A program made the translations under genes and the position numbers. DNA of 63,546 nucleotides, the filler included, from Reticulomyxa filosa (Eukaryota > Protista > Foraminifera), in the NCBI GenBank assembly GCA_000512085.1. It is 19 parts of 19 records of this genome, joined end to end, with 100 filler letters (N's around TTAATTAATTAA, not from the genome) between each part and the next. Parts side by side here need not be neighbours in the genome. Positions count along the whole stretch, not along the records: positions 10,637 to 14,059 come from ASPP01012338.1; 18 more parts are not named here. One strand, written 5' to 3'. This document shows positions 3,974 through 63,546 of this stretch, piece by piece (the first letter of the stretch is position 1; every line of letters starts with the position of its first letter). The notes under the pieces were generated by a model. That model saw nothing but the letters and a program-made list of their open reading frames with translations. It did no database searches and had not been told where the DNA came from.

Positions 3974-4826
3974 ATGACAGCAAAATTTGTGAAAAAAGAG
4001 GAAGCAAAAAAAGGCTTAACGGAAAATGAGACTTTAGCAGCAAAATCCTTAGAAATGTTGAAAGAAACCCTACAAAACGAGTCAAAAGAGATAATAGACT
4101 GTTTTCTTCCAATAAAAATATTGGAATTGAATGCAATGTACACAAAAATAATGAGAAATAATACAAGTATCCAAAAAAAGTGCACTCAAGTAAGCGTGAT
4201 ATTAACAAAGAATAATACAAATAATAATCAACAAAACGTGATCAATGACGGTAAGGAGGCCGTAGAAACGAGGATTGGACGAAAACGGAAATATTCAGAA
4301 ATTTCGAACAAAAAAGAAGAAGAGAAAACGGACGAAAAAAGGAAAAAAAGAGTGGAAGACACAAATTGAATCATTATTTAACGAAATAAAGACCGAGCTG
4401 AAGTCAATTCAAGACGAAATTGAGCCTGAGGTTCTTACCTTTATGGATATTTTAGATAAAGTCATTTTATTTATAAACTTGCAAATGCCGCAAATTGAAG
4501 ACGGCAACAATTTTGGTGTTGTGGTTCAAGAAGAGGTGAAAAAAATAATTAGCGACGCAAGTGCAAGCGCTTATAGTTTTTTACGTGAAATCCCCAAATA
4601 CTTTGTTCAACGAAGTGAAATTGAAACCAAACTATCCAAATATCCCAATCTAAGAGATTACTTCAAAGTTTTGACTGACTTGGACAGTAAGCAGGCTTTG
4701 CTTTTAACACACACTGTCAAAGATTTGAGAAATAATTATTTCATCATTTTTGATATCATTCAAAAAAACTACCAAAAAATTATTCAACCTAAAGGGCAAA
4801 AACTTGCTACTATGTCACTCTATTGA
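3974..4826 (+). CDS. Proteasome activator PA28/REG (11S) subunit, with a 1-nt frameshift
   Basis: Activation-loop motif LQMPQIEDGNNFGVVVQEEV, plus KYP..DY and C-terminal KIIQPKG...MSLY. ORFs 3974-4369 and 4275-4826 join if one A is removed from the A7 run at 4343-4349. Confidence 0.9.
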
Positions 4827-10636: not shown

Positions 10637-11219
10637 TTATTATTATTATTATTATTATTATTATTGTTGCCATTGTTATTGTTATCCTCAATGGTAATGA
10701 TATCAAGGTCTAACTGCACATCCGATCTTTCAACTCGCAAATCCGACGTGCGGGTACCTCGACCGTCGCTATGGAAAGTAATGGGGTCGAGCCCCTTTTC
10801 TTCCATTTCCGACGCTGCTGTCGATCCGTTCCTCGAACTCACCGATAACGGGTCGTCGTCCTCTCCATCTTCGTCAAAGTCCGCCGCTATGGTCTTTCTC
10901 GGACTGCTGATCTTCGCGTTCAAGTCCAGGTACTGATCGTTGCCTTTCGCCGCTGTTTGGAAACGCTTGTTGTATTTACGCAAGTCCTCGATCTTGTAAC
11001 CGTTCCCGTGCTTTTTCAATATCGACGGGTTCTTCCCGTCTTGGATCTGTGCTTGTGCTTTGAACCACTTGCGCCGAATCACCTCTCCACGGCCCGTCTC
11101 TACTCGCTTTGAACCAACATCTCGTGGGGCATCTGGTGACATTGGGCTTACTGCATACTTTTTTTTGTATACGTACATTTTTCAAAATTTTTTTTTTTTT
11201 TTTTTTTTTCTCTCCTCCT

Positions 11220-11251
<32 letters not shown>

Positions 11252-11547
11252 TTTAACTTCAATTTCTTCATCTTCATCTTCGTCGTCTGAATAATCACCT
11301 GCTTCTATATTTTTCTCTTTTTGGGCTGACGTGTTTTGGTCAATCGTGTTTTGTAACGTTTCCCACGTCGTCGGCGCACGAACGCGGCCCATGTTTTTTA
11401 GTGCAATGTCGTGCTCCTTCACCAGCGAAGGCATCTTCCCACAATCAATCTCATATTGCGCTGTAAACCACAGATCCAAAACTGGATTACCAGTTTTTTC
11501 GGTGGTTGTCTCGGCTTATTGTTTGGTGCCGTAAGCAACTTCGCCAT
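10637..11547 (-). CDS. Hypothetical protein (3' partial)
   Basis: ATG at 11547 joins ORF 11479 through a 1-nt indel in the T6 run at 11494-11499. A probable intron at ~11160-11258 is followed by ORF 11178-10637. No family recognised. Confidence 0.55.
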
Positions 11548-11852
11548 TATTATTATTTTTTCTTTTCAATTCAAACGTACCTTTGAGAGTGTCACAAAAT
11601 CCTTCTTTGTGACACGGATGCTAATGTTTCCCTATTAAAATTTTTTAATTTTTGGCTGTTTATCAAACTTTTTTCTTTTACGTTGTTTTTTTAAAGAGAT
11701 AAACTGTTTAAAAAAAATTACATATATGATCTATTTTAATTGTTTTACAACTTTTTAAATGTGTTTTAAAGAAATTGCTCCAATGAGGCACTCATCCAAA
11801 AGAAAAGTAATAAAATCAAAAAAAAAGAAAAAAGAAAAAAGGGTCATTACAT

Positions 11853-12820
11853 ATGTTATGCGATCATCGCTGTTGGAAGTGTTTGAAAAGTTGCTTCCAA
11901 ATAGTGTCAAGCTGGTGGAAGAAATGGTGTGTGGAATATTTTTATCGGTGTGCAGTGCGTAAAACGACAGCGCACAAGAAGTCGGATGAGATAGGTTTGA
12001 CAACGAAAGGAGAAAGTGAAAGTAAGTCGAGCAGTCCAGCGACGGACGTGATAAGTGTAGAAATAATGAGCAGTAAAGAGGAGAGTATGAAGAAAGACAC
12101 AGAAAAGAAGTTGAGTGCAAAGGAGGAATCAAAGTCGGAGTTGAAGTCAAAGTTGCGATGGAAATCCAAGTCGAAATGTAAATCGAGATTGATTGAGTGG
12201 TCGATTCAGTATTGCAATGCAATGGAGAAATTGTTATGGAAAAGATATACAGCTCCGGAGACATTGAGTGGGTCGGAGGAGTTGCACGTGCTGCTCTATC
12301 AAATCGTAGTGAACGTGCCGTTCGAGATTATATCACAACACATATGTAGTTTTTGGACTGCGCAAGAGAGCAGCTGCTTTGTCCCATTTTTGCAGGACAT
12401 GCACGCGTGCCATTATACGTTGCACAAGCCCAAGGGTGCATCTTTGCTGGGCAAAATAGTGGAGTCTTCGAGTTTTGGAGCGTGCACAGTTCAGAGTCTG
12501 CGACTCACTGGACTGATATCCTTGCACAGCGTGTTCGCCACGCGGCTGGTCATCCAAAACGAAAGTGACGATATCATATATATTAAGTGGATCAATTACG
12601 ATGGAGAGTTTATCCCAAATGGCTTTGTGTATGGCAAGCAGACACTGATTATTGGATGCTACGTATCACATTCGTTTGCGTTTTATTATATCAATGAAGA
12701 GCAGCAAGAAGAATGGATTGGCTTGTACCAATTGCGACATACGTATCCTATCCATATTATTTCCATTCTGCCCGTCCATTATCAGCATCATCATCATGAG
12801 CATGTTGTTCCTACGAATAC

Positions 12821-12868
<48 letters not shown>

Positions 12869-13766
12869 TAATAACAGTACTTATATTATCCCATTTCAAT
12901 TAAAAGTCAAACTCTATTATAGCAATCGCTTACGCTATCAATTGCTACCTGAAAGTAATGTTCATCTACATAACACTTCTCATGCACACGCACATGCACA
13001 TCTCTTGGATGCAATCGACAAGGCTCCATACTTTTCTTCTTCTCACTCCATCTATTTGAAATGCAAAATCCATGGATTTCAGGTGCATTACGCTCCGCAC
13101 GTCTTTGACAAGTATAAACAACACAGACTGTACGAAACGCTCGAGCAAGACTTGTTTGTCATCTGCCAACACGTGCGTGCCGTCAGCGAGTCCATTCTGA
13201 ACCTCGTTTTGAAGAAAGTGCACCTGTATGTCAACGATGAGTGTTTCTATGGCTACAAAGACATTGCCCTGATCAAAGGCGAAGGACTCACATTCCACTA
13301 CGATATCAATTACCTGAAAATCAACAACATCCCATTGCAAAAGTGCTATGCCATTGAAATCCGCAGGGCCTTGGACTACTTAGAATGGAGGGTCACACAA
13401 CCCTTGATTTTGCTTCACGAGTTTGTCCATGCATATCATCACTTCATCGGCAAAAACCGAAAAGACATCAAAAAGTGTTTCGACAACGCCATGGCCTTGC
13501 ATTTGTATGATTACGTGCAGCGCATTGTGTCTTACGATAAAGTCACTCAAGCCAAAAAATATGAGTGGTGTCGCCATTATGCCTGCAGCAACGAGTATGA
13601 GTATTTTGCAGAAATCAGTGAAGCCTACGTTGGAAATAACTGTAATTACTTTCCCTTCACTGCTGCACAACTGAAAAAACATGACAAAAAAGGGTACCAA
13701 TTGTGTCATAAACTGTGGCACTTTGATGAGGCTCAGACACAGTCTGCTCATTTAACATCAAAATAA
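11853..13766 (+). CDS. Zn metallopeptidase (HEXXH, anthrax-LF/ATLF-like) with a VHL beta-domain and an F-box-like motif
   Basis: Intact intronless 637-aa ORF. Peptidase motifs ILLHEFVHAYHH (13416-13430), YACSNEYEYFAEISEAY and FPFTAAQLKKHDKKGY. VHL-like segment LVIQNESDDIIYIKWINYDGE...CYVSHSFAF. F-box-like segment NVPFEIISQHICSFW. Confidence 0.8.
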
Positions 13767-25915: not shown

Positions 25916-26433
25916 TATCATCGTTTTCTATTTCTTCATACCAATGACCTTGTTTTTTCATTGATGCAACTTTAACAAACTCGAGCATTTTGAACTTTTG
26001 TACTTGTCACAAAACAAATCAAGTGTCACCAACACAAACAATATTTGCATTATTTCGTTCCAACTATCTGCTACTCACAAAAGCAACAAAGTTGCAAATG
26101 CAACAATATAAACAGTTGTAACTAACGAGTTGACAACTGTTTGAAAACTTGTTCAAAAAATTAGGGGACAATGGGAGTTGGATAAAGAGAGATAACAAGT
26201 GAAAGAATCGACACAGATTATGGATGGTGACATAGACCCTGGACTGAGTTATTTAGTACATTGTATTCCTATCCAAATGAAACTTGTCGGGTGACGAATG
26301 TGGTAAATGGTAACAACTGATAGATACTCACCCAACTTTTAATGGCGGCATATCCCTGAACATTGGTCTGTTCCGATCGTTTAAACAAATCCCATCAGAA
26401 CCACCAGACAGTGATCTCGAGGACGAAGAGTTT

Positions 26434-26740
26434 GTGTGTGGCCAAGTCAAGTCACGATTGATATCAAGAGAATTGGGATCACGTCCAAACATTATTCAAA
26501 AAGGGAACCTGCGTCGAGCTCACTATTTGTATTTTCAAATGGTGGACCTGTCTTGGGAGAAGCTGATATTATATGTATTCATCAGCGTATTGCTCTTCAA
26601 TGTATCATTTGCGACCCTATTTTATGTATCGGACGGTGTGGTCGACACCAACGAAGGCAATGACATCGAATGGATAGATTGTTTCTATTTTTCGTTACAA
26701 ACGATGGACACTATTGGTTACGGGGGATTACAGCCTCAAG

Positions 26741-26741
<1 letters not shown>
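26434..26741 (+). CDS. Inward-rectifier (Kir/KirBac-like) K+ channel, partial
   Basis: Slide helix YFQMVDLSW, TM1 LLFNVSFATLFY, and pore region CFYFSLQTMDTIGYGGLQP. Confidence 0.88.
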
Positions 26742-26771
<30 letters not shown>

Positions 26772-48967: not shown

Positions 48968-49768
48968 AATTATGGAATATTTTTGATTTGAAGTGCAATG
49001 TTGCAACCATGATTGTAAATTATTATTGTTTTGAATATCATTTACAATTTCATCAAATCCATCTAATAGTAATAACAATCCATTCATTGAATTAATAATG
49101 CATTTGGTGTCATTTGAATTCCATTGTGGAATATGTAATTCATTCATAACCATTGACCATAAGTATTCAATATCACTACTTTCATTTTTCTTTTCATCAT
49201 CACTATTTTCATTAATGCGATGAAAAACATTGATAATGTTCTTTAAAGGAATGTGCAATAGATATTGGAATTGATGGCTCCACATTTGATTATTTCCCCA
49301 CAAATATGCAATTCTTTGAGACAGCACACTCTTTCCACTCCCTGCTTCTCCTCGAATACTGATGTGACGTACTTTTGATTCGTCTTCTTTGTCATTCCAA
49401 ATATCTTGCAATTCGATAGTTTCAGTTTGATTTTCATAGATTAATGGATAATCTAATGAATTTAGCCATTTTTCATTTTCTTCGTTGTAATCTTTATCCT
49501 TTTCATCTTCTTCACTTTTTTCTTTTTCTTTTTTGTTGATCATTTTATTTTTTGTTGTTGGATCAAAAGGGCCAATCGAATGTAGTAAGTATCAATGGAT
49601 TGTTCAGAGTTATTAAATAACGGAGCCAGTTTATCTTGTGATTGGTAGTATCGCTCTAATTTTTCTTTTGTTGGATCCAGTTTTCGTTTCTTTTTTTTTG
49701 TTACGTTCTTCGTCTTTTACTTCTGAGGTTTCATTTGCAAGTGTTTTTTCAGGATACTTCTCTTCCAT
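48968..49768 (-). pseudogene. NACHT NTPase protein, partial and frameshifted
   Basis: Walker A ISIRGEAGSGKS, QRIAYLW, Walker B LLLLDGFDE. The upstream segment YYQSQDKLAPLF...YIRLALL is in a different frame. Confidence 0.8.
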
Positions 49769-59572: not shown

Positions 59573-59799
59573 AGTCTCAAAATTATTCAAAAAGTGCATC
59601 AATAACAAATTTTGTCTTCACTTAGAAAGATGTCCAATTTTTTGTTTACCAGAATTGTGAAAGTTATATTCTAAATTAATTTCGAGCGAGCAAAAAAAAA
59701 ATTGATAATCATGAAAACATAAAAGAATAAGAACAAATAAAAATATAAAAAAAACAAGAGCTAATCCATCAGGTAATAAAATACGTATTAAAAAGACCA

Positions 59800-60278
59800 G
59801 CAAAAAAAAGGGGTCAAGACAGGTTTCAGGATTGTCAATGTAATGTCCTCTATCGTGTTTGAACATGTAATTCTTGGAAAATTCTTTGGTTTTGCAAATG
59901 GCAACAATGCTGATATTGGATTTGGACAAAGGTGGTTGTTGATCGTCTCGATAACTACATAATGCTACAAATATTGTCTCTTTGTCTCCCCAATCTTTAT
60001 ACACTTTTGTCATTTGAACTTTTTCGTGATATATCCTTTGCACTTTTTCCATGCCGAAAATGTAATGGTATATCCCCTTCTTTTTGTTATTTGTCATTGA
60101 CTTCTTTTCTTTTTGCCAATCATCTTGTCTTTCTTTTGATATGTTCAGTCTCTTCCATAAGTATCTTTGTAACAATGCCAAATTGTGATTGTTACGCTCT
60201 TGCTTGTATCTGCTACTATCATTACTACTTCCACCCAGACTTTCTATTTGCATTGCTATGTCTTGTCGCAAACAGCTC
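59800..60278 (-). pseudogene. Glycosyltransferase GT60 (Gnt1-like GlcNAc transferase) remnant
   Basis: ETIFVALCSYRD resembles the GT60 N-terminal TIFVSIASYRD motif. Similarity breaks down immediately afterwards. Confidence 0.45.
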
Positions 60279-61742: not shown

Positions 61743-62555
61743 GTTGTAGTTTTTTAAAAAGGGAGGACGTGGCATGACCTTTTGACAACAAAAAAATTAT
61801 TTTACATTGTAACAAATTATTTGAGCAAAAATCTTTGCTGCGAATTATTATTTAAACGGAAGAAAAAAAGTGTGAAATGGCTTTTTATTTTTTAGATTTG
61901 CGTAAATTCGTTCAATTTTTTATAATTTTCGAATAGTTAATTGATATTTATGAATTTAAACAATACGTAAGTTCAACACTCTAACGTGATAGTACAACCG
62001 CAAAAGTGTATTTCACTAATTTAAAAAACTTGATTTAGTCCAGTTATTTTATTCAAAGTATAAATATTCAAATCCTTTTTCCAAAGTTCATAAGTACTTC
62101 AACATCTATTGTGTAAGTAATTTTATCACTTGACGTTATCAAATTTAAATTTTAATCTTGTCAATTCAAAGCAAAGATCAAAAATGTAATCACATTGAAT
62201 CAAAACATAATAAATTTGATCGATTGTCATTGAAGACATTTTTAGATGAAAAAATTTAATCTCTTTGCCTTTTATGATCGATTGGAATTAACAAAAAAAC
62301 ACATACATATTCACAGTTTGTCACAATACTNNNNNNNNNNNNNNNNNNNNNNNNNNNNNNNNNNNNNNNNNNNNTTAATTAATTAANNNNNNNNNNNNNN
62401 NNNNNNNNNNNNNNNNNNNNNNNNNNNNNNGGCCTAACCGGCGGTGAGGCTGCCAGTGCAAGACATGCGATAGCTATAAAGCATAATGGATTTGTGCTTG
62501 CTGCTCATCTGTTCAACGCCACACGATTTGCTGCCACAGTGCCGCCAAATCCCGC

Positions 62556-62584
62556 TTGCCAACGCGGCTACCGGCAACGATAAT
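62556..62584 (+). promoter_or_regulatory. Sigma70-like promoter
   Basis: TTGCCA (62556-62561), a 17-nt spacer, then GATAAT (62579-62584), directly upstream of the riboswitch. Confidence 0.6.
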
Positions 62585-62593
62585 GCGCGCATT

Positions 62594-62788
62594 CCGCAGG
62601 AGAGAGCGGTTTGCCCGCCGGGCAGAACCGCCGCCGAAGGCGCAAGTGCACCCGCAATCGCTCAGGCAAAAGGACTGCAAGAATCGGGGTTTTCCCCGCA
62701 GAATCTGGAGAGCGGCGCACAGGATGCGCCCACCGAAGGGGCTAACGGCGCAACGCCGGAAAATCTCAGGTGCAGGGACAGAGGGGTG
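62594..62788 (+). promoter_or_regulatory. Tandem glycine riboswitch (two aptamers)
   Basis: Aptamer 1: GCAGGAGAG...CGCCGAAGGCGCAA...CGCTCAGGCAAAAGGACTGC. Aptamer 2: TCTGGAGAG...CACCGAAGGGG...TCTCAGGT...GGACAGAGG. Located upstream of gcvT. Confidence 0.95.
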
Positions 62789-62828
62789 TGAGAAACAGAG
62801 GAAACTCACGCTCGTACAAGGACCTGCC

Positions 62829-63546
62829 ATGACAGCCCCGAAACGTACCCCCCTATACGAAGCCCATCTCGCGTCCGGCGCGAAAATGGTCGATTTTGCC
62901 GGTTGGGACATGCCCATCCATTACGGCTCGCAGCTGAAAGAGCACGAGATCGTGCGTAGCGACGCCGGCATGTTCGACGTGTCGCACATGACCGTGGTGG
63001 ACATCACCGGTAGCGACGCCAAGGCTTGGCTGCAAAAGCTGATTGCCAATGACGTGGCCAAGCTGGGTTTCGAGGGCAAGGCGCTGTATTCCGGCATGCT
63101 GAACGAACAAGGCGGTGTGGTAGACGATCTGATCGTATACCTCACCGCTTTTGGTTTCCGGATGGTCGTTAACGCCGGTACCACCGAAAAAGACCTGGCC
63201 TGGATGGACAAGCAAGCCGCCGGTTTTGACGTGAAGCTGCAAGTGCGCCGCGACCTGGCCATGCTGGCCGTGCAAGGCCCCACCGCCATCGACAAGGTGT
63301 GCAGCGTGAAGCCGGCCCTGGCCGACAGCATCCGCGCCCTCAAGGTATTCCAGGGCCTGCCGTCCGGCGAATGGTTCTTTGCCCGCACCGGTTACACCGG
63401 CGAAGACGGCCTGGAAATCATGATCCCGGCCGCCGAAGCCATCACCTTCTTCAACCAGCTGAAAGACGCCGGCGTGGCCCCGATCGGCTTGGGCGCCCGC
63501 GACACGCTGCGTCTGGAAGCCGGCATGAACCTGTACGGCCACGACA
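62829..63546 (+). CDS. gcvT: Glycine cleavage system aminomethyltransferase T (bacterial, 3' partial)
   Basis: AAGGA RBS, then [13 protein letters not shown]...[13 protein letters not shown]...GMFDVSHM...DDLIVY...VVNAG...AVQGP...[11 protein letters not shown]...[20 protein letters not shown]. The frame stays open to the window end, so it is absent from the ORF track. Confidence 0.98.

What the first reader, a model, noticed from the sequence alone, without database searches (positions are those of the whole stretch)
11853..13766. F-box-like motif + VHL beta-domain + bacterial-type HEXXH peptidase in one intronless gene
Seen: an intact 637-aa ORF with a Cys/Trp-rich N-terminus, NVPFEIISQHICSFW (~12312-12357), a N-x-S-x3-I-x-I-x-W-I-N-Y-D-G...Y-x-S-H-x-F segment (~12543-12690), a poly-Asn spacer, and a complete HEFVH...NEYEYFAE...FPF...LK.HD zincin. 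Known: F-box and VHL proteins are substrate receptors of cullin-RING ubiquitin ligases, and this peptidase motif spacing is that of anthrax-LF/ATLF-like bacterial metallopeptidases. Inference: a bacterial-derived protease wired to cullin-adaptor-type modules. It could be a substrate receptor that cuts its target, or a ligase-tethered or ligase-regulated protease. I do not recognise this architecture; it is the best candidate for a new system here.
Basis: partly seen in the sequence, partly recalled or inferred. Interest (0 to 1): 0.75.

Follow-up and report, generated by a model that had tools for sequence, protein, structure and literature searches.

The report
Protist protease with F-box-like tag
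This intact protist gene encodes a predicted zinc protease joined to a relative of the peptide-gripping domain of the human VHL protein, a pairing also found in other protists and some bacteria, and here it carries a conserved F-box-like motif that may, though untested, tie the enzyme to the cell's ubiquitin-tagging machinery.

Summary
The 637-aa ORF is real and conserved. Two domains are confirmed by profile and fold: a pVHL beta-domain relative and a zincin of the MtfA / lethal-factor / Pro-Pro-endopeptidase fold, with H522, E523, H526, Y576 and E583 invariant in 96 of 96 aligned sequences. That pair is not new to this gene. It recurs in a large protist-like clade (named members: a diatom and Reticulomyxa) and in Planctomycetota and Verrucomicrobiota. 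The VHL part is not a cullin adaptor: it has no alpha-domain, and its hydroxyproline pocket is altered. The unusual part is the F-box-like motif. It sits at the same place in 6 proteins, all of which also have Asn at pVHL Y98 (0 of 30 others do). It is the best match to an F-box profile (score 24; 0 of 150 shuffles reach it). But only helix 1 matches, Pfam misses it, and Skp1 binding is untested. Most likely reading: a cytosolic protease, with VHL-beta as a substrate-gripping site, whose level or location SCF controls through a degenerate F-box. It is a new variant of F-box-plus-enzyme proteins, not a new system.

The parts
11853..13766 (+). Intact single-exon ORF, 637 aa
   Evidence: colinear contigs of a relative with mostly synonymous changes
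11853..11951 (+). Cys/Trp-rich N-terminus (aa 1-33); no signal-peptide-like stretch; S-acylation and membrane anchoring inferred
   Evidence: 5-6 Cys in the first 45 aa of the query, P0009, P0010, P0011; 0-3 in the other 36 clade rows; hydropathy heuristic
12273..12422 (+). F-box-like helical region (aa 141-190); core motif 12312-12356
   Evidence: conserved in 6 proteins; three helices at pLDDT about 45-53; best F-box profile match, helix 1 only
12507..12782 (+). VHL beta-domain relative (aa 219-310); pocket W246, N256, C269, H273, F275 = pVHL W88, Y98, S111, H115, W117
12783..12881 (+). Poly-His/poly-Asn insertion, probably in a loop of the VHL sandwich
   Evidence: absent from relatives; a further strand, aa 348-353 (12894-12911), is modelled after it
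13044..13736 (+). Zinc metallopeptidase domain (aa 398-628): HEFVH 13416-13430, Y576 13578-13580, E583 (EXXA) 13599-13601
10637..11515 (-). Divergent neighbour gene with a 100-nt GT-AG intron (11158-11257); shows that the contig (10637-14059) is eukaryotic
   Evidence: no significant Pfam family

Best explanation
The gene encodes a predicted cytosolic zinc endopeptidase whose VHL-type beta-domain likely grips a peptide of the substrate and whose degenerate F-box likely docks it on Skp1, so that the SCF ligase would control the enzyme's level or location. Shown: the intact ORF, the two folds, the complete catalytic set, conservation of the motif, the altered pocket and the lack of a VHL alpha-domain. 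Inferred: that it is active; that VHL-beta is an exosite for a proline-containing peptide (nearest solved folds include Pro-Pro endopeptidases, and some bacterial fusions keep the full hydroxyproline pocket); that the unit came from secreted bacterial VHL-peptidase fusions and lost its signal peptide; that the motif binds Skp1; that the Cys-rich N-terminus is S-acylated and holds the enzyme at a membrane.
For: Catalytic H, E, H, Y, E invariant in 96 of 96 rows; EXXA as in MtfA. VIA: lethal factor Z 12.7 (rmsd 8.1), PPEP-3 Z 12.2 (rmsd 3.9, 177 aligned), PPEP-2 Z 11.4, MtfA 8.4, pVHL 10.0; same order for the P0013 model. Motif at canonical F-box helix-1 spacing in 5 relatives, one extra residue in the query. 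In P0013 and P0168 it is the extreme N-terminus, followed by VHL-beta and enzyme, the usual F-box protein order. An F-box profile (13 Pfam-checked stretches) picks the motif out of 558 columns: score 24.1; 0 of 150 column shuffles reach it (max 18.3); reversed 10.3; 5 control groups without the motif 9-15; both subsets land on the same motif. The only named Atlas sets for P0013 1-75 are F-box (0.87 and 0.81, leads only). Signal-like stretch in 0 of 46 protist-like and 79 of 104 other proteins. Precedent: JcdI is an F-box enzyme, and F-boxes are proposed to regulate turnover of such proteins (PMC9485057).
Against: No Pfam F-box hit for the query, for 70 relatives or for the 6 cut-out motifs. 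No PDB hit for the motif profile, which was misregistered for 2 of 6 rows. hhalign probability only 12% over 22 columns; no match to helices 2-3. The F-box set was picked by a helix-1 pattern, so that test is partly circular, and column shuffling is a lenient null. Single-sequence HMM scores are negligible: the best is 5.8 bits, and the query ranks 42nd of 69 with any match. The subset P0013+P0168 alone scores 14, within the control range. pLDDT is 40-53 in the region in both models. Most relatives lack the motif, so the enzyme does not need it. No substrate is known; MtfA, a fold relative, acts by binding Mlc and has no known substrate.
Confidence: 0.45

Rival explanations
1. An ordinary member of the protist VHL-beta + zincin family. 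The N-terminal helices are a structural or membrane-packing extension that resembles an F-box by chance or by decay, with no tie to a ligase.
For: All curated F-box tests are negative; only one helix matches; 29 of 40 clade rows have VHL + peptidase, most without the motif; the group with the motif is one branch in only 54% of bootstrap trees.
Against: The motif persists at about 30% overall identity in two distant subgroups and goes with Y98->N in 6 of 6 against 0 of 30; the profile match beats shuffles and controls; a single origin is not rejected (p-AU 0.48).
Confidence: 0.33
2. A true SCF substrate receptor that cuts its own target: VHL-beta selects the substrate, the zincin cleaves it, and the bound ligase ubiquitylates the product.
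For: Domain order F-box, binding domain, enzyme; the subgroup-specific pocket residue N256 suggests a dedicated ligand.
Against: VHL-beta + peptidase works without any F-box in bacteria and most protists. No substrate or Skp1 data.
Confidence: 0.14
3. A binding or titrating protein like MtfA, in which the zinc site is secondary.
For: MtfA shares the fold and acts by binding Mlc, substrate unknown.
Against: The catalytic Glu and Tyr are invariant in 96 of 96 rows, though these rows were found by similarity to this domain.
Confidence: 0.08

Closest known systems
MtfA (M90) / anthrax lethal factor catalytic domain / Pro-Pro endopeptidases (M34-type zincins)
   Same: Fold (Z 8-13); HEXXH plus downstream EXXA Glu, preceded by a conserved Tyr
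   Different: 11-17% identity; the query is below Pfam cut-offs; no secretion signal, no toxin delivery domain; specificity untested
Unnamed secreted metallopeptidase family of Planctomycetota, Verrucomicrobiota and Bacteroidota, some fused to VHL-beta (L033, P0050, P0077)
   Same: 30-45% identity in the peptidase; 1361 representatives at E<=0.001; VHL-beta in the same ORF in 3 of 80 bacterial loci
   Different: Bacterial members mostly have signal-like N-termini; 3 keep the full pVHL pocket; none examined has the F-box-like motif
Human pVHL
   Same: beta-domain fold, residues 61-156; W88 and H115 kept
   Different: No alpha-domain / BC box; Y98->N, S111->C, W117->F
F-box-plus-enzyme proteins of protists, e.g. 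Dictyostelium JcdI (PMC9485057)
   Same: N-terminal divergent F-box-like motif on an enzyme
   Different: JcdI is a dioxygenase with shown Skp1 binding; here the enzyme is a protease, an extra VHL-beta domain is present, and binding is untested

Membership tests
F-box proteins (PF00646, PF12937) | Score above the Pfam cut-off | tested here: not met
   no hit for the query, 70 relatives or 6 cut-out motifs
F-box proteins (PF00646, PF12937) | Helix 1 motif L-P-x-E-I-x-x-x-I-x-x-x-L | tested here: met
   hydrophobic pattern at canonical spacing in 5 relatives, one extra residue in the query; best profile match; partly circular
F-box proteins (PF00646, PF12937) | Helices 2-3 and the three-helix fold | tested here: inconclusive
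   helices modelled at pLDDT 40-53; profile match stops after 22 columns
F-box proteins (PF00646, PF12937) | Binds Skp1 | not testable with these tools
pVHL (CRL2 receptor) | beta-domain fold | tested here: met
pVHL (CRL2 receptor) | Hydroxyproline pocket W88, Y98, S111, H115, W117 | tested here: not met
   W, N, C, H, F in the query
pVHL (CRL2 receptor) | alpha-domain with BC box after the beta-domain | tested here: not met
   in relatives the peptidase starts about 14 residues after the last strand; matches end at pVHL 154-156; no VHL_C hit
MtfA / ATLF / PPEP-type zincins | HEXXH plus third-ligand Glu (EXXA) and catalytic Tyr | tested here: met
   H522, E523, H526, Y576, E583, A586; the role of the Tyr is recalled from lethal factor
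MtfA / ATLF / PPEP-type zincins | Fold | tested here: met
   Z 12.7, 12.2, 11.4, 8.4
MtfA / ATLF / PPEP-type zincins | Pfam cut-off PF06167 or PF07737 | tested here: not met
   query 11.6 bits against 26.2; some relatives pass
Pro-Pro endopeptidases | Pro-Pro specificity residues and cleavage | not tested
   fold match only

The most novel reading that the evidence does not exclude
A ubiquitin-ligase receptor that is itself a protease: the F-box docks on Skp1, the VHL-type domain reads a proline state of its target (or of Skp1, which is prolyl-hydroxylated in some protists, PMC3515798), and the zincin cuts the target before SCF tags it. That would be an oxygen-linkable cut-and-degrade module built from a bacterial food-scavenging enzyme.
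Probability: 0.12. Interest if true: 0.85.

Novelty: new variant of a known kind. Interest (0 to 1): 0.5.

Why it matters
It shows a route by which a probably bacterial VHL-beta + peptidase unit was moved into the cytosol of protists and, in one subgroup, may have been hooked to SCF. If Skp1 binding holds, it is a protease under direct ligase control, or a ligase receptor with its own blade. The family also gives a natural series of VHL pockets (intact in some bacteria, F/T/H/F in the diatom group, Asn in this group) for asking what VHL-beta bound before HIF.

Tried and rejected
No whole genome is held, so paralogues, Skp1 and PhyA of this organism could not be sought. No RNA holder listed: the two runs are only guessed to be RNA, come from one study and from a relative, and no piece spans the ORF; expression is not shown. 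Complex prediction with Skp1 was not available; Skp1 homologues had been collected for it. Single-sequence PDB searches found nothing useful; NCBIfam nothing. No F-box chain is listed in the fold searches, but that region is low-confidence and barely tested. F-box search by handle: 0 of 1 record. No conserved gene neighbour within 3 kb in 80 bacterial loci (best 4 of 80 apart from the gene and its antisense frames). Bacterial contamination rejected for this contig (intron-bearing neighbour; tree). SOCS/BC-box reading of the motif rejected by eye on spacing and by lack of Pfam hits. L063 looked like a fusion but is a single-domain gene. A possible glycosyltransferase fragment at 59621-60277 got no Pfam hit. 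Literature searches listed no paper on this architecture (listings only; most subscription papers are not held). No supplements were read. Earlier-findings look-ups by sequence, by the full architecture and by genome gave nothing.

Full report
Observation. The ORF 11853-13766 (+) is open for 637 aa, and every quoted motif is at the stated place. The window is a chain of contigs joined by a fixed linker; this gene's contig is 10637-14059 and also holds a gene with a 100-nt GT-AG intron, so it is eukaryotic. That the organism is foraminiferan-like is my recall of intron style, not a tool result. Contigs from two runs of one study, 86-90% identical, lie colinearly over 11846-13765 in seven pieces with no joints and one in-frame 12-nt gap; one piece bridges 11907-12748. 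Of 40 differences shown (134 not shown), 32 are third-position, and 32 of 39 changed codons are synonymous. The gene is real and constrained; expression is not shown.

Peptidase. The C-terminal domain has 1361 relatives at E<=0.001 among 50% representatives. H522, E523, H526, Y576, E583, P601 and D611 are invariant in a 96-row alignment. The AlphaFold model (mean pLDDT 76.5, over 85 in this domain) matches lethal factor (Z 12.7, rmsd 8.1), PPEP-3 (Z 12.2, rmsd 3.9, 177 aligned), PPEP-2 (11.4) and MtfA (8.4); a model of relative P0013 gives the same top matches. MtfA has HEXXH plus EXXA and no known substrate (PMC13482132, passages). PPEPs belong to the M34 group (PMC8610288, passages). Nothing suggests a toxin: no delivery domain and no secretion signal.

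VHL domain. Confirmed by Pfam below cut-off, profile, Atlas (0.92), Foldseek and VIA (pVHL 61-156). Only the beta-domain is present; there is no room for the alpha-domain that binds elongin C. The pocket reads W, N, C, H, F against pVHL W88, Y98, S111, H115, W117 (pocket residue list recalled, mapping). The poly-Asn tract probably lies in a loop of this sandwich.

Spread of the pair. Pfam finds VHL at E<=0.01 in 10 of 70 relatives scanned, 3 above cut-off. My own HMM, seeded from 11 of these proteins, marks 36 of 233 tree rows, 29 of them in a 40-row clade that holds the query and no named bacterium. Only two members of that clade are named: Reticulomyxa filosa RFI_26904, without the motif, and the diatom Attheya. 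In a careful tree of 58 chosen rows the protist-like 36 split from 22 bacterial or bacterial-like rows at 100/99; the tree is unrooted, so bacterial origin is inferred. VHL and peptidase share one ORF in 3 of 80 bacterial loci, e.g. L033, Planctomycetota; 3 of 36 domains keep the whole pocket, all outside the protist-like clade. A crude hydropathy test finds signal-like starts in 0 of 46 protist-like proteins (some are fragments) and 79 of 104 others. Bacterial VHL-beta domains are in print, function unknown (PMC7736814, passages; PMC9002001, abstract).

F-box-like motif. Six non-redundant proteins carry it (query, P0009, P0010, P0011, P0013, P0168); in P0013 and P0168 it is the very N-terminus. 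All six have Asn at Y98, against 0 of 30 others. For: canonical helix-1 spacing in the five relatives; a profile of 13 of 25 Pfam-scanned stretches (8 above cut-off) finds the motif as its best match, score 24.1, against 0 of 150 shuffles and 9-15 in five control groups; Atlas leads at 0.87 and 0.81. Against: no Pfam or PDB hit, probability 12% over 22 columns, a motif-selected profile, negligible single-sequence scores, low pLDDT, and one extra residue in the query. The group is one branch in FastTree (92) but not resolved in IQ-TREE (54% of bootstraps); one origin is not rejected (p-AU 0.48). I put Skp1 binding at about 0.55-0.6. Four of the six also have a Cys-rich N-terminus.

Mechanism. 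Most likely a cytosolic zinc endopeptidase with a VHL-type exosite, to which one subgroup added a degenerate F-box so that SCF sets its level or place (0.45). Rivals: no ligase link (0.33); a receptor that cuts its target (0.14); a non-catalytic binder (0.08). Precedent for F-box enzymes and for degenerate protist F-boxes: PMC9485057 (passages). Skp1 prolyl hydroxylation in protists: PMC3515798 (passages). PMC12475580 (passages) added nothing.

Novelty. No listing in searches or 105 describes the three-part architecture; searches were for context. The parts and the F-box-plus-enzyme logic are known, and the VHL-peptidase pair is widespread, so this is a new variant of a known kind. Interest 0.5; it would rise sharply if Skp1 binding and a cut substrate were shown.

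Noticed in passing
window 62431-63546: Last contig is 61-62% GC and encodes a glycine-cleavage T protein (Pfam GCV_T E 1e-73); probably a bacterial contig in this assembly.
   Followed up: partly
whole window: Contigs are joined by 100-base spacers of N with a TTAATTAATTAA core (18 joins), so genes on different contigs are not true neighbours.
   Followed up: yes
window 48968-49591 (-): NACHT NTPase fragment (Pfam E 9e-13).
   Followed up: partly
window 4266-4823 (+) and 26314-26769 (+): Proteasome activator PA28 and a potassium-channel fragment.
   Followed up: partly
window 59621-60277 (-): Fragment that recalls a hydroxyproline GlcNAc-transferase motif; no Pfam hit, unconfirmed.
   Followed up: partly
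L033 2134-3981: Planctomycetota protein with two HEXXH domains around a VHL-beta domain whose hydroxyproline pocket is intact; probably secreted.
   Followed up: partly
L081-L096: Skp1-like genes on viral contigs records, several from giant-virus bins; one (L093) has a long C-terminal extension.
   Followed up: no
P0059: Family member with VHL + peptidase + EF-hands, suggesting calcium control in another lineage.
   Followed up: no
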